Source: Rhodothermales bacterium (GTDB lineage: Bacteria; Bacteroidota; Rhodothermia; Rhodothermales; Bin80). From it: DNA of 64,000 nt. The stretch spans positions 98,886 to 162,885 of the forward strand of contig JAJECV010000006.1 of assembly GCA_022821875.1 (NCBI GenBank), read 5' to 3'. How positions within the stretch are numbered: the first letter of the stretch is position 1; the number at the start of each line of letters is the position of its first letter. Under the pieces are notes generated by a model. It had not been told where the DNA came from. It saw only the letters and a list, made by a program, of their open reading frames with translations, and searched no databases. The translations under genes and the position numbers were made by a program. Shown in pieces: positions 4,391 to 24,443 of the stretch.

Positions 4391-4476
4391 TTCCCGTATC
4401 GCGGGCAGATCCAGGCCTGTACAGGGACATTCGAGCGGCATAGCAGTTAGAGTCTGCCAATCATTGATTGTGCACA

Positions 4477-6038: not shown

Positions 6039-6183
6039 AACGAAGCAGATTCGTTAATTTTGGGGCTTATATACCTGAGTGCCCATACTTAGGGAACTTT
6101 TTCCAGTCAGGTGGATAAAACGAATACAATCGGGAAGGATAGTGCCTCCCCGATTGCCTACACAAGATCATCCGCTTGATGCT

Positions 6184-9441: not shown

Positions 9442-9483
9442 GCTCAATCAGAACAGAATATCTTTTCTCTGGCTCACTCAACA

Positions 9484-9516
9484 AAGGCTGGAGCATAACC
9501 CCCGGTGACACAAAAG
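9484..9516. repeat. REP-like hairpin element, copy 1
   Basis: aaggctggagcataacccccggtgacacaaaag. Shares the core GG(A/G)GCATAA-CCCGG(T/C)GACAC with copies at 16508, 16566 and 16677. Confidence 0.6.
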
Positions 9517-9593: not shown

Positions 9594-10640
9594 TCACCGT
9601 TCGTTACGATTCTGCATGACAGTGTCCACAAACTCCAATACCGCTGAGCATGTTTTTTCCCATTCTTTACTATTCTTGAAGGACAGCGAGTGGCCGCCGT
9701 GCGGCCACTCGCTGAGATCGACTGACTCACCAAGTCGGCCAAGCGCATCGTCTCCGCCCAACTGCTCGGCTTGCGGCAGGATGCTCACGCTATAGATGCC
9801 TTCCCCGAGGTAACCGGCCTGTACGCCGAAATAGCCTTTCCAACTCTTTGAACCATTGGGCCCCGGATCCATAAACCGGAAGCTGATCCCTGTTTTGCCT
9901 ATCTGTTCCCATGGGCCCTGCTGTGGTAGACGCTCTCGAATGTCGTTGCGTATACGATCAAAGAACTGTTCGTAGCTGTGCTCTTTCAAGTAGTGTCGCA
10001 AGGCTTGGCGTTGCTCAGCCGCAGTGACGGAACGAGGACGTATCTGGTTTTCGCCATCTGGACTTACCTCTATTTGTCGAGCCAACAAGGTCTCGCCACC
10101 CCGACGGAACCCATGAAAGGTGATGACCGAGAGTTCAACTGCCCCTGCTGACACGAATTGCGCCATTCGTTCGGTGGCTTCATCCATGCCAAAACCGATC
10201 AAGGTCATCCGCGGCGGTAACAAGCGGGACAGATCATCATCTTCGAACGTGTCGGCGTACCATTGTTCGAAGTTCTCAATTCGCGGAATACCAGCTTCCC
10301 CCGAGCGATTCGAGATGTGTTTGGCAACTTGTGCCGGGGTCATGGAATTCAGTGCCGAAGCATAATCCAGGATCTGCGTCACGGCATCCCGTGCGAGGTT
10401 GCCGCGCTTTAATTCGTAGACTACCAGACGTCCGTCGCCGTCAACCGCAAGCAAATCCAACCATCCTCCAGCGGTTGGTGTCTGTCGCCCAACCAACTGT
10501 AGCCCAGGCTCAAGCATTTCTGGATTGGAAACCAGAACGTTCTCAAACTCCCATTCGGTAGGCATCTGTGAGATCTTTGGAACGAATTCGATTCTGTTTG
10601 ATCCGTCTACAGCCCACAACTTGAGTTCCCGAATCATCAC
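9594..10640 (-). CDS. NucS/DUF91-like PD-(D/E)xK nuclease-domain protein with a ~200-aa C-terminal extension
   Basis: EWEFENVLVSNPEMLEPGLQLVGRQ...GGWLDLLAVDGDGRLVVYELKRG is the DUF91/NucS C-domain pattern (D...E-x-K). Confidence 0.6.
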   Translation of the reverse strand: MMIRELKLWAVDGSNRIEFVPKISQMPTEWEFENVLVSNPEMLEPGLQLVGRQTPTAGGWLDLLAVDGDGRLVVYELKRGNLARDAVTQILDYASALNSMTPAQVAKHISNRSGEAGIPRIENFEQWYADTFEDDDLSRLLPPRMTLIGFGMDEATERMAQFVSAGAVELSVITFHGFRRGGETLLARQIEVSPDGENQIRPRSVTAAEQRQALRHYLKEHSYEQFFDRIRNDIRERLPQQGPWEQIGKTGISFRFMDPGPNGSKSWKGYFGVQAGYLGEGIYSVSILPQAEQLGGDDALGRLGESVDLSEWPHGGHSLSFKNSKEWEKTCSAVLEFVDTVMQNRNER

Positions 10641-10992
10641 TTGGTAAATTGCTGATAAAGTACTCGTTTCGGTGTCGTGTCTCCAATAATATCAATCATA
10701 CCCATACTGACTCTCTTTGCCATCGGTTTAAGGATCAAGTGCCACAATATACTTCACTCGTCTGAAAAGATCAGTTGCACCTCCATCAAACTGTACAACC
10801 ATAGTGTCAACACACAATTTTTAGAGCCACTAATTCAGTGATCACATAGCCTCGGAGGGGGTTTTGAAATTCATTGCTTAATCTAAGCCGCCAACGTTGC
10901 CAGGTTGAAAATCGCCTGATCATGGGTCCATCGGGAGTGGAACCTTTAAAAAGGTACTATGGTATAAAAATTTATAAAGTTAGGTATCTTTT

Positions 10993-12273
10993 ATGCAAAA
11001 CTTCCATCGAACACATGTCGAACGATTGATAGAATTTATTTCAGGTACCTCCGACATGCGGCTTATCGCCATTATTGGTCCTCGTCAGGTTGGCAAAACG
11101 ACCATTGCGCTTCAGGCCCGACAGAAGCTGGTTGAAGCAGGGTTTACATGTCAGTACATTGCCATCGACAATCCACATCTAAATCAGTCGGACTGGCCTG
11201 GAGATGCAGGCATCTCTGATACCACGCTGATTGAGAAATTTGCGAATCCCAAGACTCTTGTGAACATATGGGAGAGTGCCCGCAAGGCTTCGCTAAAGTC
11301 TCCCCGGGGGCATATTTTGTTTCTGGATGAAGTTCAACTCATTCCACAGTGGTCAAATTATGTGAAGGGGCTGTGGGACAGAGACCGTATGGACGGCTAT
11401 CCCCTCCGTGTGGTAATCCTGGGATCAGCAGTCTGGCAGATGCTTATTGGCCGTAACGAGAGTCTCACAGGTCATTTCCGCGAATTACCCGTCAGTCACT
11501 GGTCATTTAAAGAAATGACCAAGGTATTCGGTCTGACGGCGGAGCAATTTATGTTTTATGGCGGTTATCCTGCCTCCCTGCCCGACGAATCGGAAACATC
11601 GCCGTTTGATTATTGGCGTGACTATATTGCAAAAACCATTGTGGACTCGGTGATTGGTCGGGACATATTGGGTTTGAAACAGATCAAGAAACCTGCCTTG
11701 ATGCGCCAATTAATTGACATCGCCCCCCGCTACTCTGGCCGAATCATGGCATACAATAAGTTCTTGGGGCTACTTCAAGATAAGGGCAATGCAACGACGG
11801 TTAAACATTACCTGAACCTGCTTTCTAATGCAGGCCTGATTACTACGTTGTCGAGATACACTCCAATGCCACATCTGGGCATCGCCTCACGCCCCAAGTT
11901 TAATGTTCTGAACACGGCACTGATGACGGCACTGTCCGGTTATTCGTTTGAGGAGATACAAATTGACCGGTCTTTTTGGGGCCGTGTTGTAGAGAGTGCA
12001 GTGGGGGCCCATCTATGTAACACGCGGAATACGGCTACCGACATTCATTATTGGCGTGACAAGAATGGCGATTATGAGGTTGATTTTGTCATCTCACGCG
12101 GCCCCCATCTTGTCGGCGTGGAGGTTAAGAGCGGCAAGCAGCAGACACACCGTGGATTAGAGGCATTCAAGGATCGTTTTCCGCATGCCAAAACAATGAT
12201 CGTGGGTCCAGGTGGCTTTCCGTTCCATGAGTTTTTGTCGTTGAATACCGACGAGTGGATTGAATATCTGTGA
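10993..12273 (+). CDS. AAA+ ATPase with DUF4143 C-terminal domain (COG1373-like)
   Basis: Walker A GPRQVGKTT, Walker B ILFLDEVQ, and a C-terminal DIHYWRDKNGDYEVDFVI...VGVEVKSG nuclease-like fold typical of DUF4143. Confidence 0.75.
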   Translation: MQNFHRTHVERLIEFISGTSDMRLIAIIGPRQVGKTTIALQARQKLVEAGFTCQYIAIDNPHLNQSDWPGDAGISDTTLIEKFANPKTLVNIWESARKASLKSPRGHILFLDEVQLIPQWSNYVKGLWDRDRMDGYPLRVVILGSAVWQMLIGRNESLTGHFRELPVSHWSFKEMTKVFGLTAEQFMFYGGYPASLPDESETSPFDYWRDYIAKTIVDSVIGRDILGLKQIKKPALMRQLIDIAPRYSGRIMAYNKFLGLLQDKGNATTVKHYLNLLSNAGLITTLSRYTPMPHLGIASRPKFNVLNTALMTALSGYSFEEIQIDRSFWGRVVESAVGAHLCNTRNTATDIHYWRDKNGDYEVDFVISRGPHLVGVEVKSGKQQTHRGLEAFKDRFPHAKTMIVGPGGFPFHEFLSLNTDEWIEYL

Positions 12274-15200
12274 ATCCAACCATGCAGCGTATCTCTCGTA
12301 CGGTCACACTCATTGAACCCCAGAATGATCCGCGTTTTGGGAAAGCTGGACTGTCATTGCAGGACTTTGATTGTGATCATGGGTATGTTCTTCTGGGGGA
12401 GCCGGGAATGGGCAAGAGCACAGAGTTTGAATCTGCAATTGATGGATTTGATGGTAGACATTGTATTTCGGCCCGAAGATTTATCCGGGCCGATTTTGAT
12501 CGTCACCCGGAATGGCGAACCAAAACAATTTTCATTGACGGGCTTGATGAAATGCGTGTTGGTGGGGGAGACCCAAGAGCAGTGCTGGACGAGATCATTC
12601 GTGGTCTGGAAGCATTGGGAACCCCCAAATTCCGGCTGTCCTGCCGCTCTGCCAACTGGTTGGGGGCTGGTGACCGGAATGAGCTCGGTTCGCTTTTAGA
12701 CCCAGACAAAATTCCAGTACTCCAATTGGACCCGCTGAACTATGAGGACATTCGGGAGATCGTTTCTCAACGGGGGCAGGATGCAAACACGTTCATTCCG
12801 CAAGCCCATGAGTACGGTATGGATGCCTTACTCGGGAATCCGCAACTGCTTGACTTCCTGATCACATCCGTCAAGGCAAAGGGCTGGCCTGACAGCCAGT
12901 TGAAAATGCTTGAAAACGCCTGTCGGGAGCTCGTCCGAGAAAAAAACATTGAGCATCTTGATGCCCAATCATCCAGTTCACTGCAACCCCGGGAAGCAAT
13001 CTTAACTGCAGCCGGAAAGCTTTGTGCGTGCATGCTGATCGCAAACAGGACTGGTTGGGCGGGCAGTGATACGGATGACTCCGAGATTCTATCTATCCGT
13101 GATTTGGAAGGCGACCAAGGTTTCCCCATCCAGGCAGCATTTGATTCAGGGATCTTTGAAGGTTCGCCCAGTTTCAAAGTTCCGATCCATCGACTTATCG
13201 CCGAATTCCTTGGTGCACGCTATTTGCACAAAAAAATCCAGAGAGGCCTAAGCGTCCGGCGTGCTCTCTCCCTTCTCATGGAACACAATGGAATTCTTTT
13301 GCCCGATCTAAGGGGACTGGCTGCCTGGCTCGCTGCATTCAATGAGCAGGCAAGAGCAATTCTGATACAGATCGCTCCAATGACGGTGGCTTTCCATGGA
13401 GATGCCAGCGGTTTCAGTCCTATTGAGCGAAATAAATTACTCGCGAAACTGGAACAACAAATCCATTTGAACTCCGACTGGCCTTCCGCTGCTGCCCTTC
13501 GTGCTTTAACCGGCAAAGAAGGCATACCAATTATCCAGGATTTAACGAATTCGCCTGAACGTTCACAAAACAGGCAAACGCTGGTTTATTTGCTCCTTCG
13601 GGGATGCTCACAATTGTATCTTGATACGAGCATGTCAGACTGGGCGACCGATCACCAAAGCCTGCTGAATATTGTTCGTGATCACAGTTGGCAATCAAGT
13701 GTTCGTTGCGAGGCACTCGGAGCTTTGAGCCGGATATCTCATCAGATTCCGCAGTGTAGCAATCTATTGAGAGATCTCCTTGAGGATGTGCAGGAAAAAC
13801 GTATATCGGACGAAGAACACGATCTGCGGGGCACATTACTTCATCTTATCTATCCTGACGGGCTACATCCTGAGGAGATATGGGATTACCTCGTGGCGGG
13901 GCCGGTGACTGCTTATTTGGGCGGTTATCGAAACTTTTTTTCAAGCCTCGTTGAGCGATCAAATGAGGGTCAGATCAGAGAATTACTCGACTCTCTTTGC
14001 AATCGCGCTCCCGAAGCCATTCCAAAATTAGAGGATCAAAAACTTGCAGATGTTATTTTCCGGATTCTTGCAAGGGGGTTGGAATTATTTGGAGATGAGT
14101 TGAGCATATCCGAGTTGTACCGATGGTTTACACTGGTTGAATTCTACCATAATTCGTTACAACTTTCCTCAGTTCACACTTCAAACTCAAGTTTTAGCCA
14201 GCACGATGAAGCGGACAGTACAATCCGTAATTGGCTGAATCAGCATAAGCGTATCCAGTACAGTCTTATTGAACATGGTCTATCCATTGAAGAAGCGAGC
14301 ATTGGGAGCAAAGTTCTTATTGAAACTATAGGATGCAAATTCGTGGGCAGGAATGCACCAGAAGGATTTCGATTGTGGTGTCTTGAGCGTGCGGTACAGC
14401 TCTGGGTCTCAAATCAAACTGTGGCAAGAGAACTCGCATCATGGTCCGTCTCTAATCTGATGCAAGTGGGCGGGGAGCCGCCCCTCTCGGATAAGGAGGT
14501 CAGTTCCGTAGTGTCTGGTACGCCTGGGTTGGTCCAGTGGAATGATCAACGCCTGAAGGAAAGGGCGAAGTCTGAACTTGAGTTCAGTGAGATCAGGAAG
14601 AAACAGAAGGAAATCCGAAGTGTCCATCAAAAAGAAAAGCAGGAAAAACTTAAAACCCTTCGCCAACAACAGACCATGTTGGCAAAGGGGCAGTGCATGC
14701 CTGTAATTCTTGATGAACTTGCCCATGTTTACTTTGATAACCCTGACACAAATGAAAGTAATCCAGAGACTTGCCTGCAGTCATATTTTGAAGGTGATGA
14801 GAAGCTCGTAGAGGCAACGCTGGATGGGTTTCGCAGCCTGCTGGGCCGGGATGATCTCCCGGATCTTGGTCAAATTGCCCAGCTCTATGAAGATGGCAAG
14901 CGATCCTATTTTGCACTCCCTTTTCTTGCAGGAATGGAAGAGGCATACAAGGCGAATAAGAATCTGAGCCATCTCTCCGAAACGGGGATTCGGCGGGCAC
15001 TGGGATTTTATCTGACTACAGAATCTCCTCGTCAGCACTACTATCATTTAATCAATTATATGGGCGGTGACAGCACATCTCCCGCATGGTATAAGCAGGC
15101 ATTAGAGCACTATCCAGAGGCTGTGGCTGATTCATTGGTTTATGTGCACAACGCAACGGTCCGCTCCAAAAATCCGCCGAATTCCGAAATGTACAAGATG

Positions 15201-16508
15201 GTCGATGATTCAGCCTATGATCATGTGGCAAAACTTGCGGTGCCCCGAATGTTTACGGTATTTCCTTCCCGATGCAGTGCCCGTAAACTGGAATCTCTAA
15301 GTTTGGTCCTTTGGAGTGCGATTCGGAACAACGGAATGTCTAAAAAGGAATTGCGGAGTATTATTTCAAAGCGACTCAATCGCAAACGGATGGACGTAGG
15401 TCAGCAGGCCCAATGGCTGGGTGCAGGATTGTTTGCGGACAGGAAGATCTATATTCCAATGCTGATCGACTTTCTCTCTGCCGGAGAGGAAATTCGCATG
15501 CACCATGTTATTCATTTTCTCGTTCCTACGAACTGTAAACTGCTTACTCCGCAAAACATCAATGAATGGACTTCTGACGAGATTCGCCAACTTATCCAAA
15601 CATTCGGCAGACGAATGGATCCACCTATTTCTCAAGAACGTGCAGGTATTGTTAGGGGCGAGCAGAGAATCAGAATGGGATTTCAGTTTCTCCTCACACA
15701 CTGGCTCGGAGAACTAAAAAAGCGCATCTGTGATGAGGCAAGGAAGAATCTGGACATATTGGCATCCGATTCTGATCTATCGATATGGGAGCGAGAGATT
15801 GTACTCGCTCAGGAAGAACAAGCTAGACATCGTCGAGCGGCAAAGCATTCGGATCTAAGCTTAGAGAAAATTCAGAAAACCCTGAATTGTGGCTTCCCGG
15901 CAAATGCTGCCGATCTTGTCAGTCTAACGCTTGATGCCCTTGAAAAGTTAGCAGGCGATATACGTAATGGTCCAGCCAGTGCATGGCATCAATACTGGGA
16001 CTGGGATCGGAAGCCTCGTAGGCCCTCACAACCAAAACCCGAAAACGATTGCAGAGATGTATTACTTTCCGGCTTGGCAACGATACTTGAAGGGTATCGG
16101 GTTGATGTACAGCCGGAGGGGCGGTACGCAGATGAACGAAGGGCGGATATCCGAATATCGTACGGCTCCAATCTAGCGGTCCCGATTGAAATCAAGAGAA
16201 ATTTAAGCATAGATTTGTGGCGCGGCATCTCTGAGCAACTTGTACCAAAATACACACGAGATCCAAAGTCTCATGGCTATGGAATTTATCTGGTGTTCTG
16301 GTTTGGAGCAGACTACATGAAGGTTGGGGCCCCAGATGGAGGCATCCCCGAAGAAGCAATAGAACTAAAGGATTCACTGGAAAAGCGGCTTGATCCAGAA
16401 CTCCGCAAAAGAATTCATGTCGCGATCATTGATGTGGCTCCGTCTGGCAGATTTGCGGAGAGTCAGTCATCAAAGGATTGCCAGTCTCAGACAAAACTGG
16501 GGGTATAG
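12270..16508 (+). CDS. 1412-aa STAND-like P-loop NTPase with a long helical region and a C-terminal PD-(D/E)xK-like module
   Basis: Walker A GEPGMGKST (12396-12422) and Walker B IFIDGLDE. C-terminal RADIRISYGSNLAVPIEIKRN (about 16140-16200). The GTG start overlaps the stop of the upstream ATPase (GTGA); an alternative ATG is at 12282. Confidence 0.65.
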   Translation: MNPTMQRISRTVTLIEPQNDPRFGKAGLSLQDFDCDHGYVLLGEPGMGKSTEFESAIDGFDGRHCISARRFIRADFDRHPEWRTKTIFIDGLDEMRVGGGDPRAVLDEIIRGLEALGTPKFRLSCRSANWLGAGDRNELGSLLDPDKIPVLQLDPLNYEDIREIVSQRGQDANTFIPQAHEYGMDALLGNPQLLDFLITSVKAKGWPDSQLKMLENACRELVREKNIEHLDAQSSSSLQPREAILTAAGKLCACMLIANRTGWAGSDTDDSEILSIRDLEGDQGFPIQAAFDSGIFEGSPSFKVPIHRLIAEFLGARYLHKKIQRGLSVRRALSLLMEHNGILLPDLRGLAAWLAAFNEQARAILIQIAPMTVAFHGDASGFSPIERNKLLAKLEQQIHLNSDWPSAAALRALTGKEGIPIIQDLTNSPERSQNRQTLVYLLLRGCSQLYLDTSMSDWATDHQSLLNIVRDHSWQSSVRCEALGALSRISHQIPQCSNLLRDLLEDVQEKRISDEEHDLRGTLLHLIYPDGLHPEEIWDYLVAGPVTAYLGGYRNFFSSLVERSNEGQIRELLDSLCNRAPEAIPKLEDQKLADVIFRILARGLELFGDELSISELYRWFTLVEFYHNSLQLSSVHTSNSSFSQHDEADSTIRNWLNQHKRIQYSLIEHGLSIEEASIGSKVLIETIGCKFVGRNAPEGFRLWCLERAVQLWVSNQTVARELASWSVSNLMQVGGEPPLSDKEVSSVVSGTPGLVQWNDQRLKERAKSELEFSEIRKKQKEIRSVHQKEKQEKLKTLRQQQTMLAKGQCMPVILDELAHVYFDNPDTNESNPETCLQSYFEGDEKLVEATLDGFRSLLGRDDLPDLGQIAQLYEDGKRSYFALPFLAGMEEAYKANKNLSHLSETGIRRALGFYLTTESPRQHYYHLINYMGGDSTSPAWYKQALEHYPEAVADSLVYVHNATVRSKNPPNSEMYKMVDDSAYDHVAKLAVPRMFTVFPSRCSARKLESLSLVLWSAIRNNGMSKKELRSIISKRLNRKRMDVGQQAQWLGAGLFADRKIYIPMLIDFLSAGEEIRMHHVIHFLVPTNCKLLTPQNINEWTSDEIRQLIQTFGRRMDPPISQERAGIVRGEQRIRMGFQFLLTHWLGELKKRICDEARKNLDILASDSDLSIWEREIVLAQEEQARHRRAAKHSDLSLEKIQKTLNCGFPANAADLVSLTLDALEKLAGDIRNGPASAWHQYWDWDRKPRRPSQPKPENDCRDVLLSGLATILEGYRVDVQPEGRYADERRADIRISYGSNLAVPIEIKRNLSIDLWRGISEQLVPKYTRDPKSHGYGIYLVFWFGADYMKVGAPDGGIPEEAIELKDSLEKRLDPELRKRIHVAIIDVAPSGRFAESQSSKDCQSQTKLGV

Positions 16509-16526
16509 GCCCCGGCGACACTAAGC
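16508..16526. repeat. REP-like element, truncated copy 2
   Basis: ggccccggcgacactaagc. Overlaps the stop codon of the 1412-aa gene. Confidence 0.5.
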
Positions 16527-16565
16527 ATTGACTAAAGCAATCCAAAAGGGATAAACACGCTCAAC

Positions 16566-16607
16566 GAAGGCCGGGGCATAAACACCCCAGCGGCGTTTAT
16601 TCTAAGG
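16566..16607. repeat. REP-like hairpin element, copy 3
   Basis: gaaggccggggcataaacaccccagcggcgtttattctaagg, with stem GGGG-cataaaca-CCCC. Confidence 0.55.
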
Positions 16608-16676
16608 TGTAGCCAATCGGTTCAATGTCTTGGTGAGTCTGGTGTGTATTCAGGTGAATGATGGCGTTCGCTCACC

Positions 16677-16711
16677 GAAAGCCAGGGCATAAATCCCGGC
16701 GACACTTAGGG
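16677..16711. repeat. REP-like hairpin element, copy 4
   Basis: gaaagccagggcataaatcccggcgacacttaggg, with stem GCC(A)GGG-cataaat-CCCGGC. Confidence 0.6.
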
Positions 16712-16774
16712 AAAAATAGTTGCATATGTCAAAAAAATGCTCGATGTCTGATATCAGAATAACAGGATCAGAAT

Positions 16775-17677
16775 TCACAGTCTTTCGCTGCCAAATGCCC
16801 TTGTAGTATCATTATCCCCCCTTCTTTCGAACTGAACACTCCGCCAGCCCTCATGAATTCCCAGCAGGTCCCATGATGGCTTATCTTTGGGATCCCAGAT
16901 ATCCATGAGTGCGTCTATGGCGTTATAGTCAAGGGGCTGGCTCCATGCTGGCCAATAAAACTGAAGGTCTTTTTGGTTTGATGTATTTTTCCGCCATCCC
17001 CGCTGTCGTTTTCCAGTTTTTGTTTTTCGCCGATCTGATTGTTGGTCGACCCCGTTTCCGCGAACCGGGAACATGGAAAGACCAAAAAATACAAGTATTT
17101 CTAAAACGGGATCGGTCCAGATAGCAGCGGCATCCGACGATGACCCAAGTCGAGTTTGATCAAAGCCTAAGCCATTTTTCTTAACTCGAGTAGCATAGCC
17201 CATCAGTGACTCTTGTACTCTCGTTTCGGAGATGCACAAATCTTTCTGGAGAGAAATTAATCTGCCGTGCAAGGTTATTCCCCTTGGAACGGGTGGATCA
17301 AAGGGAGCATGTTCAATCTTGCCAGTCCTATCAATACATAAATCGGTCATTGTTGACGATAATGTCCACGAGTGAGGATGTGAGCGGGCCATTTGCGCCC
17401 TCTGCCTGAACACTTCTGCCGGAACATTTCGCTTCATCTGCTCAATATCCCTCCAGTGCTGAGCTATCGGCAGGTCATCCAGCACCGCTTTGTCTGGCCA
17501 TGACTCAACAAGGGCATCAACTGGATGGGTTATATCTGTCGTTAATACAGCTGTTGGTTCCGAATCTGCTGTCCAGTGCAGGCGAATTCTAGTATCCAGA
17601 AAGGTAGTTCCAACTGCTGCAAGCCAGGCATTAATCCATTTAGCAGGCAATCCTGGGCAGATAATTTCCTGAAGCAT
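16775..17677 (-). CDS. Short Cas8u-like large-subunit candidate (Csb3-like), last gene of the cas operon
   Basis: 300-aa ORF starting 6 nt after the cas3 stop. In the csb1-csb2-cas3-csb3 variant of type I-U this position holds Csb3. There is a basic patch (RRKTKTGKRQRGWRK) and a C-terminal FYWPAWSQPL. The call rests mainly on synteny. Confidence 0.45.
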   Translation of the reverse strand: MLQEIICPGLPAKWINAWLAAVGTTFLDTRIRLHWTADSEPTAVLTTDITHPVDALVESWPDKAVLDDLPIAQHWRDIEQMKRNVPAEVFRQRAQMARSHPHSWTLSSTMTDLCIDRTGKIEHAPFDPPVPRGITLHGRLISLQKDLCISETRVQESLMGYATRVKKNGLGFDQTRLGSSSDAAAIWTDPVLEILVFFGLSMFPVRGNGVDQQSDRRKTKTGKRQRGWRKNTSNQKDLQFYWPAWSQPLDYNAIDALMDIWDPKDKPSWDLLGIHEGWRSVQFERRGDNDTTRAFGSERL

Positions 17678-17683
17678 TATTAA

Positions 17684-20503
17684 TTAATCTGTGTTTGAAG
17701 GTATATTTATTCCAGCAGAGACTGTATGGTCTGAAAGTCTCAATATGGCTTCAAGTAAAGCCAATCCCCACGGCCCGAAATGTTCATTGAGTTTCTGGAA
17801 GCGGGAAGGCTGTTCCCAGTCCACGATTCTGAGGTCAGCCGGAGTAATCACAATCTCACCTGTAATGGATCGACCAATCGTGAGTGATGTGTTATCTGCA
17901 ACCGGTTTGATAATCGGCCGACCTTTTCCATGGTGGCTAATTATCAGATGCATTAGAAGTTTTCTTTTGATTGGATCCCCCCACTGTGGGTTCTTGTCGA
18001 GCCAGACACGGACCAAGTGCGCCGATAAGGCTTCGTGGCGGCCGTGTCTTGGCCATCCAGAAGCAATGCGCCTTGATTCGCGCTTATGGTAGGGGGTATC
18101 CGACTTGGCCAAGCAAGTATTTTGATTATTCCAGTCAGGGTCAAGCCAACGCTGAAACCGCGCATCGGCTTTACCAATATCGTGCAGTTTACCGGCAAAT
18201 CTCACAACCTCGGTCAATTCCCCTGATATTCCAATACGATCACAGATTGATTGAGTCAAACGAGACACGGCTTCACCATGCGGCTCCAGTTTAACTGCAG
18301 AGTATGCAAGAGACCGCTCATCGTAATCATCATTTGGCTTTTCAGGCGGTGACTTCATCACTTTTAGACGAGACACCTCTTTGTAGGGAGTTAGAACTCC
18401 CGTTTTTACATCCAATGAATTGACAAATTCACCCCATTCTTCAGGGGCCCAGCCATGCGGGACTGACTCGGTGATCTTACGTAAAATTTTGGTCATTGCA
18501 TCGATCTGTTCCTGGGGGGCAATCTCAATGGCATCATGAGGGGATTTTCCCAGCACAGTATCCAGTAGATCCTGTAGTAACGTACCCACTGTAATCCCTA
18601 TACGCCCAAATGCTTCCGCATTAAGGGGCAGTCCGTGGCCATTTAGAGATACATCCAGAACCGGATCGGTTGCTGCGTGATTCCAACCGAATTCATCCAT
18701 GAGCCCACAATCTGAACGCAACACTATTTGATCTCTTGGCCGGAGCAATCCTAGCTCAATCTCTTCGACGGTTATCCCGTCAAAGCTTAAACGAGATACC
18801 TTTTCGCTGCCCCAACTCTTTTTCCAGGCATTGCGAAACTCGCCAATGGGGACATCAATTGATTCACGGTCACTAGCGCGGGGCCATAACCGGTTCCTGT
18901 CTTTTGGTACATGGGCTCGCCAAATTACAGATACGAATTTTTGTGTACCGCTGATACCGCTAAAATATGGTTCAACAGGGGCTTCTCCTTCTACCGGATA
19001 AGAAGTCTTTATCCATTCCCACAGAATCCCAGGCAAGAGTTCAGGTGCGCTGCTGTTAAGACCATCACAAGGTGAACCCAAGATAGTATGCACATGCGCA
19101 GGGGATAAATTAATCGATTTTGAAGCATTATTTTTACGGTGGAGATCCAGTCTGCCAAGCAGGATCTGAGGTTCCTTCCCATAGACCGGCCAGACATCAT
19201 TTTTGCGGCTATCTGTCGGTGTATGTACATATACGGCGTGAGCCTCTTCAAATCTTCCAAAGCGATTTAGCCGGCCGAGCCGTTGTGTAAGTGCGCGAAC
19301 TCCGCATTGTTCTGTAACCAGATATTCCGCATCAATATCTGCCCCAACCTCCAGTGTCTGCGTAGCGACGACAATAAGGTGCTGAGTACGCTTAAAGTTT
19401 TTATCATCTGATGAATGCATTCCCTCAAGAATGCGTTGTCGCATTTGCTCTGCTTCCCGTTCTCGGATTCGCCCTGTTAGGAGTAACACCTCGGCATCTT
19501 TCATCAACTTCGTAACATGCCCATACGTCATCCTCGCAATTCTGGGAGTGTTACAAAAAACGATGCAGGTTGCCGGGGGAGCATGTCGCAGTAGTTTAAA
19601 TGTAGCTTCCGCTATGAAATTTTTACTTTTCTGTGCTTTCTGGACAACTCTTATTTCAAGCAGCTTTGTAGCATTCAAGCGTTTTTTTATCTCTGGATGT
19701 TTCGCGTCTTCCTCATTGAGCAGGAATCTATCCTTTCTGGCTGGATCACAGGTAGCAGTCAATTGAACCAGTGTAGCCCGTAGACGAGCTTCATTCAGAA
19801 TAGGATGTATGTCTGGTGTGCAGGCAGCAATTGCTGAGTGTAACGTCCTTAAATGCGGGGTTAAGTGAGCCTCGTCCAGCAAGATTAGACTATCGGTTCC
19901 TGCCATTGCGGCATCAATTGATCGCATTCCTGAACTGGATCCATAGCCCCGGAATAATAACCGGGAACCATACATAGGAAGCGTTGTCAGAAGAATAGCC
20001 GGCTGAGCAGGACTGCTAGGCCGGTGAGACGCAATGCCTCCTCGAAGTCGGATCACCTCAAGCGGATCGGCACTGCCATACCCGGCGATATGTCGTAACC
20101 GATCTGCTACGATCTTGACAATTTGCTTCTCCTGTGGTTTAAGTTCAAATTTCTTGTGATCAGGATTACGAAGCATATGCCCTATTTTACAGGCGTGGGC
20201 AAACGTTGAATCTACAAGCAATCTCCGGTTGACCACCCACCAGATGCGTGTTGGTGCAATTCGTTGGGCTGGTTCACATTCAGCTTGTGATGCCAACCAC
20301 CACACTGCGATATCTAAACAGGTCGTTTTGCCGAGACCGGTAGGTATACCAACTTCAGAGTACCACCTACCCGTGGACGCAATCTGGTTGGCTAAGCGGG
20401 ATTGCCATGGGAAGGGGGTTCGCCCGTTAATCGCTTTATAGAATTCGTCGAAAGTTGGCATCGCCATGTACATATCTCTCAATTTTAGAGATTTATGTAA
20501 CAA
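17684..20503 (-). CDS. cas3: Type I-U/I-G style Cas3 helicase with a C-terminal HD nuclease
   Basis: N-terminal PFPWQSRL...PTGLGKTT (motif I) and LILLDEAHL (DEAH). C-terminal HD motifs KLHDIGKAD, HEALSAHLV and ISHHGKGRP. An HD domain at the C-terminus is the I-U/I-G arrangement. Confidence 0.85.
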   Translation of the reverse strand: MLHKSLKLRDMYMAMPTFDEFYKAINGRTPFPWQSRLANQIASTGRWYSEVGIPTGLGKTTCLDIAVWWLASQAECEPAQRIAPTRIWWVVNRRLLVDSTFAHACKIGHMLRNPDHKKFELKPQEKQIVKIVADRLRHIAGYGSADPLEVIRLRGGIASHRPSSPAQPAILLTTLPMYGSRLLFRGYGSSSGMRSIDAAMAGTDSLILLDEAHLTPHLRTLHSAIAACTPDIHPILNEARLRATLVQLTATCDPARKDRFLLNEEDAKHPEIKKRLNATKLLEIRVVQKAQKSKNFIAEATFKLLRHAPPATCIVFCNTPRIARMTYGHVTKLMKDAEVLLLTGRIREREAEQMRQRILEGMHSSDDKNFKRTQHLIVVATQTLEVGADIDAEYLVTEQCGVRALTQRLGRLNRFGRFEEAHAVYVHTPTDSRKNDVWPVYGKEPQILLGRLDLHRKNNASKSINLSPAHVHTILGSPCDGLNSSAPELLPGILWEWIKTSYPVEGEAPVEPYFSGISGTQKFVSVIWRAHVPKDRNRLWPRASDRESIDVPIGEFRNAWKKSWGSEKVSRLSFDGITVEEIELGLLRPRDQIVLRSDCGLMDEFGWNHAATDPVLDVSLNGHGLPLNAEAFGRIGITVGTLLQDLLDTVLGKSPHDAIEIAPQEQIDAMTKILRKITESVPHGWAPEEWGEFVNSLDVKTGVLTPYKEVSRLKVMKSPPEKPNDDYDERSLAYSAVKLEPHGEAVSRLTQSICDRIGISGELTEVVRFAGKLHDIGKADARFQRWLDPDWNNQNTCLAKSDTPYHKRESRRIASGWPRHGRHEALSAHLVRVWLDKNPQWGDPIKRKLLMHLIISHHGKGRPIIKPVADNTSLTIGRSITGEIVITPADLRIVDWEQPSRFQKLNEHFGPWGLALLEAILRLSDHTVSAGINIPSNTD

Positions 20504-20512
20504 CCTCAGTCC

Positions 20513-21955
20513 TTATTTTGACGGGATGCAAAGCCCGAATCCACGTTGCCGACCGGATCCGATTAGAACCGGGCCATGAACTGGCTGGGCGAACCGTATC
20601 CAGATATGAGAATAGGGCAAGGCAGGTTTGTTAGGTCGGTTTATTTCAACGGGGGCTAAGTCAACTGCACCTGAAATCAATGGCGTGCGAGAGGATCGGA
20701 AGTCAATCGGTTCGGGCAGTCCTGCATGACGGCACCATCTGGCTATTTCACCTAAGTCGATAGTTCTGCGGCGCTCGTGGATGGCAGGGAATGCGGTTAC
20801 CCATTCCTTGGATAATTTGAGCCATCTCCATGAATTTGCAGCAATTGGACGGTCATCACGGGTGTGAGGCTCAGGATGAGGCACAACGGATACATTGAGC
20901 ATTGTTCCAGTAATTCGCCTTACAGCAAGTGCTGCGTTACGAGATCGTTCACATTCTATTGGGCAGCTTTTGGGAGGCATCCATAATGCTATGCCATGAA
21001 TTCGTCCTTTTGATGTTGGATAACCCACATCTGGAAGAGCCAGATATCGTGCAATCTCATAACCTTTGTCAAGAAATCCATGGCCATGCAGAACCTGGGG
21101 TGGTTCATCATAGAGCCTCTGGTACTGGCTAAGAACAGACTGTTTGAAAAGATGCGTAACCGCGGAAATTCTACGACCAGAAATAGCCGCGCCAAGGCGC
21201 ATCCAGGCGACTACCTTCCCTTGGTCAGGAGTTTTGGACGATATCGGTGAACGATACCGGAATCCATCCCCAAGTGCAGGAAATTGGGATCGGCTCACTG
21301 AAGCACCTTCCTTGCACCAGATATCGTACATCCGGTCCAGAATTTTCAAATCACCAGGTTTTGTAATATTGATTACGGTATCTCCCGCTCTGTCGGGAAC
21401 AAAAACATTGGTTTTATCATCAATCGCCGGTTCTTCGAGTGAGAGTCGTAGTCTGACCGGTGAATCAGAGGCACCAAGATACCCTACTCTTGAGGCGCGC
21501 CGTCGCAGTGCGTTGAGGATTGATGTATCCGGCTGCTTAACATCCCATAGGTAAATAATACAGGGATTGCGCGGAGAAACCCGTACACCTGGACGAACAA
21601 GTGCACTGCCACGATTAATGTATTCCTGTTGGTGCTTCATTTCTTTCGACACTCCAGTGTGGCGGTAGCGCACGACATACCTTGGCGCTATAATCTGGTG
21701 AGACGGTCTTGAGTCTGCATAGATAACCGGTGGTGGTAACTGTTCAAGCCAATGTAACTCTGAACCATCCGTTGCCCAGCAGTTTTTTCGTGATCCGTCT
21801 GCAGCAACCAGAGCAGAGAAGAGACGCAGCGGAGATGGAGGCCACTCGCCCTGTGATAGCCTGCCTGTATTCGCCGTGCCGTTCGGATCACCGCGAAAGG
21901 TTGAGTGCAACAACTCCACGGATATTGCCAGCATTAGTCGGTGACCTGCGGCCAA
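20513..21955 (-). CDS. csb2: Csb2 (Cas5u-Cas6u fusion, GSU0054 family)
   Basis: The N-terminus (LLHSTFRGDP...GEWPPSPLRLFSALVAA) is the Csb2 hallmark. 480 aa. Overlaps csb1 by 22 nt. Confidence 0.75.
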   Translation of the reverse strand: MAAGHRLMLAISVELLHSTFRGDPNGTANTGRLSQGEWPPSPLRLFSALVAADGSRKNCWATDGSELHWLEQLPPPVIYADSRPSHQIIAPRYVVRYRHTGVSKEMKHQQEYINRGSALVRPGVRVSPRNPCIIYLWDVKQPDTSILNALRRRASRVGYLGASDSPVRLRLSLEEPAIDDKTNVFVPDRAGDTVINITKPGDLKILDRMYDIWCKEGASVSRSQFPALGDGFRYRSPISSKTPDQGKVVAWMRLGAAISGRRISAVTHLFKQSVLSQYQRLYDEPPQVLHGHGFLDKGYEIARYLALPDVGYPTSKGRIHGIALWMPPKSCPIECERSRNAALAVRRITGTMLNVSVVPHPEPHTRDDRPIAANSWRWLKLSKEWVTAFPAIHERRRTIDLGEIARWCRHAGLPEPIDFRSSRTPLISGAVDLAPVEINRPNKPALPYSHIWIRFAQPVHGPVLIGSGRQRGFGLCIPSK

Positions 21956-23133
21956 GTTGCGAGAATTGCACTTTCGAGATTTTTTTTCGGCTTAAGTATC
22001 TTCGGTTTCTGATCCCAGCCGTCAAGGGTCACATCAACTGATTTAGCGTAATCTTTCGCAGACTCAAGTAAATCAAGCGTGTATTCAATACTTCCCAAGC
22101 TAATTTCAGAATCAATATCGCTTCCTAACCAAGTTGTTCTCGTACTCCGGGGGCGTAGATCCGCTCCCGAGCGCAACGAGAATCCATGACCAAAGGCAAG
22201 TTGGTGTGCATGCAGGCCGAGCGCAACCAGCAGGGCGCGACAGGCAGCATTCCTATCAGATGAAAACTGATCATCAATACGAATTCTGCGCAACTGTGCG
22301 AATGATATGGTGGCCCGCTGAGAAATTCGTGTGAACGAAATAGCGGCCAAACTTGCATCATCACCCGTGAATGGTACCTGACCATGTCCCATTTCAGACA
22401 ATTTATCCGGCTTTCCTCCCTCAATTTCTCTGGTCTTTCCAATTTCCCACCGTGTTCGGTCATTGGGATTGGAGGTGATAACATCATCAGTATTCAAGTT
22501 TAAGGGATCACCTTTGAGACCGGACATTCGCGTTTCGGTCGTAGCCGGTTGCCAGCCGATGATCTCCGAAACCCAGGCACGTGCATGTTTGCTGTTGGAT
22601 TTTTTCTTCCCCAGGTGTGACTGCCAAAATCCGTATAAGAGTGACTGTGGAAACCATGCGATCAGAGGTGCACAATTCTGAGCCGTAGCTTCAAAGATGG
22701 ATATGCCAAGATCTGTTTTGATGAAATCTGTTCCGTTCAGCACAGAATCTCTGAGATAGGCATCCGCATTACGGTGTGGGAACTGGAAGCTTGAGAGGCT
22801 TCTTGGTAAGTGGGATGGCAGGTGTGTAATATCAGAGAAGTCAAGAACAAATTCCGGCAAACCTGTTGATTCTCGGTGAAGACGAAGTGCTTCTTCTAAA
22901 CGGTTCGCCTGAGATGGGACGTTATCAATAACAATAACCTCTGTCGCTTCTTTATCCTCGGAAGATGCCCACCGACGATCATGCTGGTATTCCTCGCCTT
23001 CGTAAATTGCTGGCTTGACAAGTGCCCCCTGCCCCCCTAGAGGCATCAGCTCAGAGTCAATCTGGATACCGCTATCAAATGCATCGTCTCTGCAGCCCTG
23101 AAGTACTTTTTCAAATCTGATAGGATCGGCCAT
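21934..23133 (-). CDS. csb1: Csb1 (Cas7u, GSU0053 family)
   Basis: VIDNVPSQANRLEEAL and FPHRNADAYLRDS blocks typical of Cas7u. 399 aa. First gene of a four-gene operon. Confidence 0.75.
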   Translation of the reverse strand: MADPIRFEKVLQGCRDDAFDSGIQIDSELMPLGGQGALVKPAIYEGEEYQHDRRWASSEDKEATEVIVIDNVPSQANRLEEALRLHRESTGLPEFVLDFSDITHLPSHLPRSLSSFQFPHRNADAYLRDSVLNGTDFIKTDLGISIFEATAQNCAPLIAWFPQSLLYGFWQSHLGKKKSNSKHARAWVSEIIGWQPATTETRMSGLKGDPLNLNTDDVITSNPNDRTRWEIGKTREIEGGKPDKLSEMGHGQVPFTGDDASLAAISFTRISQRATISFAQLRRIRIDDQFSSDRNAACRALLVALGLHAHQLAFGHGFSLRSGADLRPRSTRTTWLGSDIDSEISLGSIEYTLDLLESAKDYAKSVDVTLDGWDQKPKILKPKKNLESAILATWPQVTD

Positions 23134-23309: not shown

Positions 23310-24443
23310 TTATGATTTGTTTTGAATATGTTTATCCAAGTCAGTTTCCCTCAAATTGGCAAGCTGCCCGCAGGCGGCAGCAATGTCGGCTCCCCGGCTT
23401 CGCCGGACAGTCACCGTGACCCCGCGTGCGGATAAGTGCGCCATAAACGCATTCAGTCGCACCTCGCTCGTGCGCTCAAAACTGATTCCAGGCACACGGT
23501 TGTACATGATCAGGTTTACCTTTGCCCGGACCCGGTGACAGAGCCGGGCCAAAGCATGCGCATCTTTGTCCGAATCATTGAATCCCCGAAATAGACAGTA
23601 TTCAAAGGTGAGCCGCCGCCCGGTGGCCGTGGTATGGTGCTTCATGGCAGATTCCAGCGCAGCAAGGTCAGTGGCTTCGCTGCGGTTGACCGGCATGATG
23701 CCGGATCGCTTGGACTCAAAGGGGGCATGCAGCGAAACCGCCAGCCCGATTTTGGGCGCATCCCTGGCCAGATCACGAATCCGGCGTGCAAGTCCAACCG
23801 TAGAAACCGTAATTCGCCGGGGAGAAAGCCCAATTGTGTCCGGGTGCGTAAGAATCTCCAGACTGGAAAGAACCGCCTGATAATTCAACAGCGGCTCCCC
23901 CATGCCCATGAACACCACATTTGAGATGTCCCGCCCAAAACGCTCACGGGCGACCTCACGCATGCAACTCACCTGATCCACGATCTGACCGCAGGTCAGG
24001 TTTTCCTGAAATCCCATCTTGCCCGTGGCACAAAAGGTGCAGCCCATTGCGCAACCCACCTGACTCGATACGCATACAGTGAGCCGCTGCGCTTTCCCCT
24101 GAGAATCCAATTTTGGGATTAAGACCGTTTCAATGCTCCGCCCGGAAGGTAACTGCATTAGGGTTTTGACGGTCTGATCCTTTGCCGTGAGGAGTGTCTG
24201 GACCTGTAATCGCCCCATACATGCCCTTTCTGTGAGGATCTCCCGCAGTGATGCCGGGAGATTGGTCATGGATGCAAATGAATACACCGGTGTTTCAGCA
24301 TACATCCAGCGCAGGATCTGATGCGCACGCCATTTCGGCTCTCCGAGTTCAGCGATCCACGCTTCAAGTTCGGAACGGGAGAGGGCCCGCAGGTCCACAG
24401 AAGATCGCATATTAGTCTCTTTTAAATCCAAAATGTTTGACAA
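23310..24443 (-). CDS. rlmN: 23S rRNA/tRNA (adenine-C2)-methyltransferase, radical SAM
   Basis: CAMGCTFCATG (CxxxCxxC), GMGEPLLNY, and C-terminal AAACGQL. Confidence 0.88.
   Translation of the reverse strand: MSNILDLKETNMRSSVDLRALSRSELEAWIAELGEPKWRAHQILRWMYAETPVYSFASMTNLPASLREILTERACMGRLQVQTLLTAKDQTVKTLMQLPSGRSIETVLIPKLDSQGKAQRLTVCVSSQVGCAMGCTFCATGKMGFQENLTCGQIVDQVSCMREVARERFGRDISNVVFMGMGEPLLNYQAVLSSLEILTHPDTIGLSPRRITVSTVGLARRIRDLARDAPKIGLAVSLHAPFESKRSGIMPVNRSEATDLAALESAMKHHTTATGRRLTFEYCLFRGFNDSDKDAHALARLCHRVRAKVNLIMYNRVPGISFERTSEVRLNAFMAHLSARGVTVTVRRSRGADIAAACGQLANLRETDLDKHIQNKS

What the first reader, a model, noticed from the sequence alone, without database searches (positions are those of the whole stretch)
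16775..23133. Orphan type I-U/I-G-like Cas effector operon with no adaptation genes and no CRISPR array in 64 kb
Seen: four tightly packed minus-strand genes with gaps or overlaps of -22, 9 and 6 nt. They are Cas7u-like Csb1, the Cas5u-Cas6u-like fusion Csb2, Cas3 with an N-terminal DEAH helicase (GLGKTT, DEAH) and a C-terminal HD (HD, H, HH motifs intact), and a 300-aa ORF. Upstream is rlmN. Downstream is a 266-nt spacer and then the convergent giant NTPase gene. I read both flanks and the whole window and found no cas1, cas2, cas4 or direct-repeat/spacer array. Established: canonical I-U/I-G loci carry a cas4-cas1 fusion, cas2 and an adjacent array, and Csb2 supplies the Cas6 processing activity. 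Inference: intact motifs and tight operon packing argue against a decaying remnant. The module either uses a distant array in trans or has been exapted for a CRISPR-independent role, possibly together with the neighbouring NTPase genes.
Basis: partly seen in the sequence, partly recalled or inferred. Interest (0 to 1): 0.75.

Follow-up and report, generated by a model that had tools for sequence, protein, structure and literature searches.

The report

Summary
The four minus-strand genes are real and pass HMM checks: Csb1/Cas7g, Csb2/Cas5-6g, Cas3g and a 300-aa Csb3-type small large-subunit protein. No cas1, cas2 or cas4 gene is present in the 64 kb.

The "266-nt spacer" is not empty. It holds the first 45 nt of cas4, a 28-nt junction filler and three degenerate CRISPR repeats with one normal 36-nt spacer. 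A fourth, solitary repeat lies at 9475-9511, beyond the neighbouring defence genes.

A near-conspecific Rhodothermales MAG (L002; housekeeping dS 0.05-0.08) has the same rlmN-csb1-csb2-cas3-csb3 synteny. There it continues into cas4, cas1, cas2, a leader, more than 30 repeats and the same convergent EruA-like NACHT gene. 61 of 80 related loci are complete in this way.

The window therefore carries a recent ~4.3 kb deletion of a canonical locus. Recency explains the intact genes, and the adjacency to the NTPase gene is a by-product of the deletion.

Whether the effector still works, with a residual crRNA or an array elsewhere in the genome, could not be tested. At least four other lineages show similar independent truncations. 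Interest is low to moderate.

The parts
21934..23133 (-). csb1 / cas7g (399 aa), the Cascade backbone subunit
   Evidence: PF09617 116 bits; TIGR02570 64 bits (cut-off 38); PADLOC Cas7g. 92% aa identity to L002. One window-specific change at an otherwise invariant Gly, G47E.
20513..21955 (-). csb2 / cas5-cas6 fusion (480 aa), the type I-G signature gene and crRNA-processing subunit
   Evidence: TIGR02165 179.9 bits (cut-off 45); PADLOC Cas56g 262 bits. 95% aa identity to L002.
17684..20503 (-). cas3g (939 aa), with an N-terminal DEAH helicase and a C-terminal HD nuclease
   Evidence: TIGR02621 591.5 bits (cut-off 400); PF22590; PF18019. GLGKT at 56, DEAH at 210. Window-specific G252C in the LTATGD motif, where 73 of 74 relatives have Gly.
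16775..17677 (-). csb3-type protein (300 aa), probably the small Cas8g-like large subunit
   Evidence: NF049934 'type I-G, Cas3-extension family' 64.0 bits (cut-off 65), E 1.8e-17. Weak PADLOC Cas8g match to the C-terminus. A positional orthologue follows cas3 in 74 related loci. No PDB sequence relative.
16734..16778 (-). cas4 5' stub: the first 45 nt (15 codons), with the GTG start overlapping the csb3 stop. This is the left edge of the deletion.
   Evidence: Aligns to L002 16358-16402, the start of an intact Cas4 gene (TIGR00372 125 bits), and then diverges.
16706..16733 (-). 28-nt junction filler with no match in L002. It is probably the 3' part of a spacer.
   Evidence: No 12-mer is shared with L002. 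It does not carry the conserved leader-end motif ...ATTAG(G/C)(G/A)G seen upstream of first repeats.
16669..16705 (-). R1, a degenerate CRISPR repeat (33/37 matches to the L002 consensus) with a weakened hairpin
   Evidence: Fold -10.9 kcal/mol against -17.9 for the consensus.
16595..16668 (-). 74-nt inter-repeat segment, about twice spacer length. It is shared with the trailer end of the L002 array.
   Evidence: Alignment; sequences.
16558..16594 (-). R2, a repeat with a degenerate 5' end. Its hairpin is intact, and its 3' 25 nt are identical to the consensus, including the predicted Csb2 cut site and the 8-nt handle GUUGAGCG.
   Evidence: 0 mismatches in the 3' 25 nt. Fold -17.3 kcal/mol. 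The processing rule comes from PMC9638904.
16522..16557 (-). S2, the only normal-length (36-nt) spacer left. It matches the trailer-most spacer of L002 at 35/36.
   Evidence: No viral match. No significant target within the locus.
16485..16521 (-). R3, the degenerate terminal repeat (23/37 by my count). It is identical to the terminal unit of L002 and overlaps the stop codon of the convergent EruA-like gene.
   Evidence: Fold -8.6 kcal/mol, no better than shuffles.
9475..9511 (-). Solitary repeat-like unit (31/37) on the far side of the PDC-S11 / PDC-S01 / EruA-like gene block
12270..16508 (+).
   Evidence: NF058535 736 bits, below the cut-off of 1000. A 90%-identical orthologue lies directly beyond the array in L002.
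10993..12273 (+). Context: PDC-S01 candidate defence ATPase (AAA_14 / DUF4143)
   Evidence: PADLOC PDLC04791 416 bits; Pfam domains as listed.
23310..24443 (-). Context: rlmN, the upstream housekeeping anchor shared with L002 and L003
   Evidence: TIGR00048 358 bits; synteny.

Best explanation
[quoted passage not shown] The lineage's normal layout is csb1-csb2-cas3-csb3-cas4-cas1-cas2-leader-array.

In this Rhodothermales strain, one recent deletion of about 4.3 kb runs from codon 16 of cas4 into the trailer end of the array. It removed cas4, cas1, cas2, the leader and all regular repeat-spacer units.

What remains:
- a complete, apparently intact interference module: Cas7g backbone, Cas5-6g processing subunit, small Cas8g-like Csb3, and Cas3g helicase-nuclease;
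- a vestigial trailer of three degenerate repeats.

Mechanistically this is still a crRNA-guided Cascade-Cas3 DNA-interference machine. It can no longer acquire spacers. At most it can load one or two old crRNAs, made by read-through from the cas operon. The best candidate is the 36-nt spacer S2, which lies behind the intact cut site of R2.

Shown: gene identities, the remnants, the complete orthologous locus in a near-conspecific genome, and the lack of visible decay.

Inferred: the direction of change (a deletion here rather than a gain elsewhere), co-transcription of the remnant, and the present functional state. I judge that state to be idle or barely guided, and on the way to loss.
For: 1. 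L002 (Rhodothermales MAG) shares rlmN, ctaB, ctaA, glmM and groEL synteny at 96-98% nt identity, with dS 0.05-0.08. Its csb1-csb3 genes are 86-95% identical at the protein level.
2. In L002, csb3 is followed by Cas4 (TIGR00372 125 bits), Cas1 (TIGR00287 235 bits) and Cas2 (TIGR01573 54 bits), then a 170-nt leader, then 31 or more copies of a 37-nt repeat. Next come the same degenerate trailer units and the same convergent EruA-like gene.
3. The window aligns to L002 through csb3 and the first 45 nt of cas4. It then resumes at the trailer repeats.
4. 61 of 80 related genome loci have the full seven-gene-plus-array layout, so the complete state is ancestral.
5. The junction is reproduced base for base in a second assembly, L001 (Logan SRR16351678).
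6. All four cas genes are open. Their dN/dS against L002 is 0.17-0.34, within the range of the flanking genes (0.01-0.41). They deviate from family-invariant positions no more than L002 does.
7. No terminator-like site separates csb3 from the remnant.
Against: - Only 64 kb, plus about 10 kb to the left and little on the right, of a genome of several Mb could be inspected. A second array or locus elsewhere cannot be excluded.
- L001 comes from sequencing run SRR16351678, which may be the same sample as the window. If so, it is a second assembler rather than a second sample.
- dN/dS against L002 mixes time before and after the deletion, so it cannot show whether selection on the effector continues.
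- Similar truncations that keep intact effector genes recur in other lineages (L004/L005, L009, L044, L060). That could mean the state is tolerated or even favoured, rather than merely transient.
Confidence: 0.8

Rival explanations
1. Split locus. The effector is fully functional and draws crRNAs, and possibly new spacers, from a cognate I-G array and adaptation module elsewhere in the same genome.
For: - The effector genes are intact.
- Some genomes of this family carry two loci: L018 and L025 in one MAG, and L045 and L046 in one chromosome.
- Use of crRNAs in trans is described for other CRISPR-Cas systems (PMC12669027).
Against: - No other repeat copies were found in the window or in the extra flanks that could be fetched.
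- Only 2 of roughly 75 genomes in the sample showed a second locus.
- An exact-repeat scan of JGI metagenomes found nothing.
- The deletion is explained without any need for a second locus.
Confidence: 0.15
2. Functional mini-array. The three-repeat remnant is kept because it yields a fixed crRNA. That crRNA would be used for residual immunity, or for gene or cas autoregulation as with the repeat-like regulatory RNAs and CreTA-type modules.
For: - R2 keeps its hairpin, cut site and 8-nt handle. S2 has the normal spacer length.
- No terminator lies between csb3 and the remnant.
- Mini-arrays with a degenerate distal repeat are common and often regulatory (10.1101/2023.03.03.530964).
- Comparable effector-plus-mini-array states arose independently in L004/L005, L009, L044 and L060.
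Against: - The same trailer units sit at the end of a full array in L002, so they are simply the oldest part of the array.
- The best seed match of S2 near the csb1 promoter is 11/16, and 21% of shuffled seeds do as well.
- S2 has no viral match.
- Spacers are not shared with more distant relatives.
- R1 and R3 fold no better than shuffled sequence.
Confidence: 0.1
3. Exaptation. The array-less Cascade-Cas3 module has taken on a CRISPR-independent role together with the neighbouring NACHT and AAA ATPase defence genes.
For: - The module sits immediately next to the EruA-like and PDC-S01 genes.
- The Cas genes are intact.
Against: - In L002 the EruA-like gene is already in the same place, with a full array between it and the cas genes, so the adjacency results from the deletion.
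- No EruA homologue, and no PDC-S01 homologue beyond one weak 24%-identity hit in L022, appears in the other 78 related loci.
- The genes are convergent, not co-oriented.
- The family as a whole is a normal adaptive system.
Confidence: 0.03
4. Assembly artefact. The deletion is a misjoin or a collapse of the repetitive array in a metagenome assembly.
For: - CRISPR arrays are often collapsed by short-read assemblers.
- Elsewhere the window's contig and an ENA scaffold (L083) disagree, at a multi-copy TnpB element.
Against: - The left breakpoint lies in unique cas4 sequence and the right one in a non-repeat 28-nt segment. About 1.9 kb of unique cas4, cas1 and cas2 sequence is missing, which repeat collapse cannot produce.
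- A second assembly, L001, gives the identical junction.
Confidence: 0.03

Closest known systems
Type I-G CRISPR-Cas of Bifidobacterium animalis subsp. lactis Bl-04 (Csb1, Csb2, Csb3 Cascade plus Cas3)
   Same: The interference gene set is the same: csb1, csb2, cas3 and csb3. Csb3 is a small non-catalytic Cascade subunit rather than the large Cas8g1. The system is experimentally active in DNA interference (PMC12915315; also PMC9335239).
   Different: - Bl-04 has a cas4-cas1 fusion plus cas2 and a full array. This lineage has separate cas4 and cas1 genes placed after csb3.
- The window has lost those genes and all but three degenerate repeats.
Type I-G Cascade of Thioalkalivibrio sulfidiphilus (biochemistry and cryo-EM structure)
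   Same: - Csb2 is a Cas5-Cas6 fusion whose C-terminal domain cuts the repeat 4 nt 3' of the hairpin base, leaving an 8-nt handle. [quoted passage not shown]
- The repeat here has exactly that geometry: a hairpin at positions 6-25 followed by a 12-nt tail.
   Different: - That system uses the large Cas8g1 (Csx17) and a different gene order.
- Neither Csb1 nor Csb3 of the window finds a PDB chain by sequence.
Partial CRISPR-Cas loci and stand-alone mini-arrays
   Same: - An interference module without adaptation genes.
- A 2-3 repeat remnant with a degenerate distal repeat next to the cas genes. Truncation of an array is one proposed origin for such mini-arrays (10.1101/2023.03.03.530964; isolated cas loci are discussed in PMC5294841).
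   Different: - No regulatory target was detected, and there is no conservation beyond the species level.
- Here the parental complete locus is directly visible in a near-conspecific genome.

Membership tests
Type I-G CRISPR-Cas (Csb3 variant) | Signature gene csb2 (Cas5-Cas6 fusion) | tested here: met
   TIGR02165 179.9 bits against a cut-off of 45, full-length match 8-478. PADLOC Cas56g 262 bits.
Type I-G CRISPR-Cas (Csb3 variant) | Csb1 / Cas7g backbone subunit | tested here: met
   PF09617 116 bits (cut-off 25); TIGR02570 64.3 bits (cut-off 38).
Type I-G CRISPR-Cas (Csb3 variant) | Cas3g with an N-terminal helicase and a C-terminal HD nuclease | tested here: met
   TIGR02621 591.5 bits (cut-off 400). 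GLGKT at 56, DEAH at 210, HD domain 742-866.
Type I-G CRISPR-Cas (Csb3 variant) | Large subunit (Cas8g or Csb3) | tested here: inconclusive
   NF049934 scores 64.0 bits against a cut-off of 65, E 1.8e-17. PADLOC Cas8g matches only residues 233-283. A positional orthologue is present in 74 loci. No PDB relative. No structure was predicted.
Type I-G CRISPR-Cas (Csb3 variant) | Adjacent adaptation module (cas4, cas1, cas2) | tested here: not met
   Only a 45-nt cas4 stub remains in the window. The module is present in L002 and in 61 of 80 related loci.
Type I-G CRISPR-Cas (Csb3 variant) | Adjacent CRISPR array of cognate repeats | tested here: not met
   Only three degenerate repeats remain (33/37, 30/37 and 23/37), with one normal spacer. 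L002 has 31 or more regular repeats.
Type I-G CRISPR-Cas (Csb3 variant) | crRNA-guided DNA interference activity | not testable with these tools
   This needs expression and plasmid or phage interference assays.
Regulatory mini-array / CreTA-like cr-like RNA | Two or three repeat-like units with a degenerate distal repeat beside the cas genes | tested here: met
   R1, R2 and R3 at 16485-16705.
Regulatory mini-array / CreTA-like cr-like RNA | Spacer seed partly complementary to a promoter in or near the locus | tested here: not met
   The best match of S2 upstream of csb1 is 11/16, reached by 21% of shuffled seeds. S1 does no better.
Regulatory mini-array / CreTA-like cr-like RNA | Mini-array position and spacer conserved among diverged relatives | tested here: not met
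   S2 is shared only with near-conspecific L002, where it is the last unit of a full array. There were no cross-locus spacer matches apart from same-species or same-genome pairs.
Natively adaptation-less Cascade derivatives (type IV, CAST-type I-F3/I-B, III-G) | Family-wide absence of adaptation genes, together with a new conserved partner gene or loss of Cas3 | tested here: not met
   61 of 80 family loci carry cas4, cas1, cas2 and an array. Cas3 is intact. EruA is seen only in the window, L001 and L002, and PDC-S01 only in the window and L001 apart from one weak hit in L022.

The most novel reading that the evidence does not exclude
The truncation is not just decay. In this horizontally mobile I-G lineage, at least five independent events (the window, L004/L005, L009, L044, L060) removed the adaptation genes but kept an intact Cascade-Cas3 operon, followed directly by 2-7 degenerate repeats. 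This could reflect selection for an adaptation-less effector with fixed guides, used for regulation, as an addiction module, or as autoimmunity-free standing immunity. The window would be the most reduced example.
Probability: 0.1. Interest if true: 0.55.

Novelty: new member of a known kind. Interest (0 to 1): 0.22.

Why it matters
The case shows how an apparently orphan but pristine Cas effector operon can arise from a single recent deletion. A "no array" call made by eye can miss degenerate trailer repeats and a gene stub that give the history away. For annotation, the locus should be labelled a partial type I-G system, not a new CRISPR-independent system.

Two side observations may deserve a dedicated survey:
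- One I-G lineage, with almost invariant repeats, is shared across many phyla of mostly sponge-type symbiont MAGs.
- That lineage repeatedly loses its adaptation module while keeping its effector genes.

Tried and rejected
- **Standard array detection.** TRF, direct-repeat search and a k-mer chain search found nothing in the window. The cognate repeat at 3 or fewer mismatches also found nothing. The remnants appeared only after aligning against L002 and allowing up to 12 mismatches.
- **Leader origin of the 28-nt filler.** Rejected. It lacks the conserved leader-end motif and shares no 12-mer with L002.
- **Autoregulatory target for S1 or S2.** No significant seed match in the locus.
- **Viral protospacer for S2.** No match in viral contigs, with every sixth base left free.
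- **Spacers from the related loci against the window.** 1638 spacers gave only chance-level matches of 14-23 nt.
- **Exact repeat in JGI metagenomes.** No match.
- **Extending the view beyond the window.** About 10 kb to the left holds an MmeI-like restriction-modification gene, an SNF2 gene and SbcCD-like genes. The short right-hand contig adds a thioredoxin-domain gene. Neither side has repeats or cas genes.
- **Signs of decay.** Counts of deviations at family-invariant positions are no higher than in L002. Two window-specific Gly replacements are noted but prove nothing.
- **Shared ancestry of the L009 and L044 truncations.** Rejected. Their boundaries, spacers and flanks all differ.
- **Literature.** No paper in the open library links sponge symbionts with type I-G or I-U.
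- **Not done.** I did not predict the structure of Csb3. It would not change the verdict, and the alignment rows I held were not admissible for that tool.


Full report
**1. The observation**

The four minus-strand ORFs exist exactly as described: 21934-23133, 20513-21955, 17684-20503 and 16775-17677. They have a 22-nt overlap and gaps of 9 and 6 nt.

The HMM scans confirm the family calls:
- Csb1/Cas7g: PF09617 116 bits; TIGR02570 64 bits against a cut-off of 38.
- Csb2, the Cas5-Cas6 fusion that defines type I-G: TIGR02165 180 bits against a cut-off of 45.
- Cas3g: TIGR02621 591 bits against a cut-off of 400. GLGKT is at residue 56, DEAH at 210 and the HD domain at 742-866.
- The 300-aa ORF: NCBIfam NF049934, "type I-G CRISPR-associated protein, Cas3-extension family", E 1.8e-17 at 64.0 bits, one bit under the cut-off. 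It also has a weak PADLOC Cas8g match at its C-terminus.

The order csb1-csb2-cas3-csb3 and this gene set match the Csb3 variant of type I-G, which is active in Bifidobacterium lactis (PMC12915315). Large-subunit size variants of type I-G are noted in PMC9638904.

The flanks are:
- rlmN upstream (TIGR00048 358 bits);
- a convergent 1412-aa EruA-like NACHT gene downstream (NF058535 736 bits, below its cut-off of 1000);
- then a PDC-S01 ATPase and a NucS-like PDC-S11 gene.

No cas1, cas2 or cas4 gene is present in the window. This rests on tblastn with the family's own Cas4, Cas1 and Cas2 and on HMM scans of the remaining large ORFs, which are housekeeping genes apart from a TnpB. Standard repeat finders report no array.

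**2. What relatives show**

Csb1 has more than 1500 homologues. A scan of one genome per species returned 80 loci, L002-L081.

In 61 of them the layout is csb1-csb2-cas3-csb3-cas4-cas1-cas2, followed about 170 nt later by a CRISPR array. Eleven loci are too short to judge. The rest are variants.

The closest relative, L002, is a Rhodothermales MAG. It shares the window's upstream genes (rlmN, ctaB, ctaA, glmM, groEL) at 96-98% nt identity, with dS 0.05-0.08, so it is essentially the same species.

In L002, csb3 is followed by:
- Cas4 (TIGR00372 125 bits), Cas1 (TIGR00287 235 bits) and Cas2 (TIGR01573 54 bits);
- a leader;
- 31 or more copies of the 37-nt repeat GTGTCGCCGGGGTTTATGCCCCGGCCTTCGTTGAGCG;
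- three degenerate trailer units;
- the 3' end of a 90%-identical EruA-like gene, also convergent.

In this lineage cas4 and cas1 are separate, overlapping genes.

**3. What the "266-nt spacer" really is**

Aligning the window to L002, and reading the sequence, gives these features on the minus strand:

| Window coordinates | Feature |
|---|---|
| 16778-16734 | First 45 nt of cas4; its GTG start overlaps the csb3 stop |
| 16733-16706 | 28 nt with no counterpart in L002 |
| 16705-16669 | R1, 33/37 matches to the consensus repeat |
| 16668-16595 | 74-nt inter-repeat segment |
| 16594-16558 | R2; 5' end degenerate, 3' 25 nt identical to the consensus |
| 16557-16522 | S2, a 36-nt spacer, 35/36 identical to L002's last spacer |
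| 16521-16485 | R3, degenerate terminal repeat, identical to L002's; overlaps the EruA-like stop codon |

The 28-nt filler lacks the conserved leader-end motif, so it is probably a spacer fragment.

A fourth repeat-like unit (31/37) lies alone at 9475-9511. It sits beyond the PDC-S11, PDC-S01 and EruA-like genes.

The window has three hits with 7 or fewer mismatches, all on the strand of the cas genes. In 200 shuffles there were none, and the best shuffle had 11 mismatches.

So the window carries the same locus as L002, minus about 4.3 kb. The missing stretch runs from codon 16 of cas4 to the trailer end of the array. A second assembly (L001, Logan SRR16351678) gives the same junction base for base. 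Because the breakpoints lie in unique sequence, collapse of the array during assembly is unlikely.

**4. State of what is left**

All four cas genes are open. Their dN/dS against L002 is 0.17-0.34, within the spread of the flanking genes at 0.01-0.41.

At positions that are at least 95% conserved across 74-80 family members, the window deviates 3, 4, 6 and 0 times in Csb1, Csb2, Cas3 and Csb3. L002 deviates 3, 5, 5 and 1 times. Most of these deviations are shared by the two genomes.

Two are unique to the window and hit otherwise invariant glycines: Csb1 G47E, and Cas3 G252C in the LTATGD helicase motif. This is too little to call decay. It is also too little to call continued selection, because the comparison mixes time before and after the deletion.

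The consensus repeat folds into an 8-bp hairpin at positions 6-25, followed by 12 nt. This matches the type I-G rule that Csb2 cuts 4 nt 3' of the hairpin and leaves an 8-nt handle (PMC9638904).
- R2 keeps the hairpin (-17.3 kcal/mol), the cut site and the handle.
- R1 (-10.9 kcal/mol) and R3 (-8.6 kcal/mol) fold no better than shuffled sequence.

No terminator-like or promoter-like site lies between csb3 and the remnant. Read-through from the cas operon could therefore yield at most one or two old crRNAs. That step is inference.

**5. Interpretation**

The best-supported reading is a recent deletion derivative of a canonical, adaptive type I-G locus. Intact motifs and tight packing are what one expects a short time after such a deletion. 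They do not argue for a new function.

The proposed partnership with the NTPase genes is not supported:
- In L002 the EruA-like gene already occupies the same position, with a full array between it and the cas genes.
- EruA and PDC-S01 homologues are essentially absent from the other 78 loci; the only trace is one weak 24%-identity PDC-S01 hit in L022.
- The genes are convergent.

Use of a cognate array elsewhere in the genome remains possible and could not be tested. Only the window, about 10 kb to its left and very little on its right could be inspected, and these held no repeats or cas genes. An exact-repeat scan of JGI metagenomes found nothing.

A regulatory or fixed-guide role for the remnant finds no support:
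- no significant seed match near the csb1 promoter or elsewhere in the locus;
- no viral protospacer;
- no spacer conservation beyond the species level.

**6. Comparison and novelty**

The locus works like, and by gene content belongs to, type I-G (Csb3 variant). It fails the adaptation-module and array criteria only because of the deletion. Partial loci and truncated mini-arrays are well known (10.1101/2023.03.03.530964; PMC5294841). This is therefore a new member of a known kind, and interest is low.

Two side observations are more interesting than the original claim.

First, this I-G lineage appears at 56-69% Csb1 identity in MAGs of many phyla. They include Rhodothermales, Vicinamibacterales, Gemmatimonadota, Chloroflexota, Actinomycetota, Spirochaetia, Alpha- and Gammaproteobacteria and Ca. 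Synechococcus spongiarum. Many of the names are typical of sponge symbionts, which is my reading of the record titles. The repeats are almost invariant apart from the hairpin loop.

Second, loss of the adaptation genes, with intact effector genes followed directly by 2-7 degenerate repeats, has happened independently in L004/L005, L009, L044 and L060. Whether that pattern is plain decay or a selected state is open. I put the selected-state reading at about 10%.

Noticed in passing
window 9475-9511 (-), with the block 9594-16508: A solitary CRISPR repeat (31/37) lies beyond the PDC-S11, PDC-S01 and EruA-like genes. The degenerate terminal repeat R3 overlaps the EruA-like stop codon. This suggests the three defence genes sit inside the old trailer of the array, or between two array remnants.
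   Followed up: partly
L002-L081: One type I-G (Csb3-variant) lineage, with separate cas4 and cas1 genes, occurs at 56-69% Csb1 identity in MAGs of many phyla. Many carry sponge-symbiont names. The repeats are nearly invariant apart from the hairpin loop, and the leader end is conserved. This points to extensive horizontal transfer. I found no open paper describing it.
   Followed up: partly
L004/L005 16340-17500; L009 16347-16712; L044 16322-16589; L060 7659-8581: These loci show independent losses of cas4, cas1 and, except in L004/L005, cas2. The effector genes stay full-length and are followed directly by 2-7 degenerate repeats. In L060 the repeat-spacer units are near-duplicates of each other (a 75-nt unit at 89% identity).
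   Followed up: partly
L016 ~9643, L020 ~9690, L042 ~6669: Repeat-like units lie upstream of csb1, about 300-350 nt upstream in L016 and L020. They could be stand-alone regulatory repeats. The window has no equivalent.
   Followed up: no
window 22993-22995 (Csb1 residue 47) and 19748-19750 (Cas3 residue 252): Two window-specific substitutions fall at otherwise invariant glycines: Csb1 G47E (79 of 80 relatives have Gly) and Cas3 G252C in the LTATGD helicase motif (73 of 74 have Gly). They may be the first signs of relaxed constraint, or they may be neutral.
   Followed up: partly
window 6079-7485; L083: An ENA scaffold (KELL22-1 scaffold_196) is 100% identical to window 98-6098 and about 95% identical across the TnpB gene. 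Beyond that it is unrelated and continues into ABC-transporter genes. This indicates a multi-copy TnpB element that marks a rearrangement or an assembly breakpoint.
   Followed up: partly
L083/L084 1-9900 (left of the window): Just outside the window lie an MmeI-like type II restriction-modification gene (1363 aa), an SNF2 helicase (1094 aa) and an SMC-like ATPase with a metallophosphoesterase. The wider region is therefore rich in defence genes.
   Followed up: no
L014 16925-19676; L049 15402-18641; L045/L046 cas1: There are insertions of about 2.7 kb between cas4 and cas1 (L014) and about 3.2 kb between cas3 and csb3 (L049). One chromosome carries two identical locus copies with a shortened Cas1 match (L045/L046). 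None of the insertions was annotated.
   Followed up: no
window 3001-3623 and 46091-46221: A 320-nt unit is repeated 1.9 times (83% matches) upstream of a DUF3800 gene. A 21-nt unit is repeated 6.2 times at 46091-46221.
   Followed up: no
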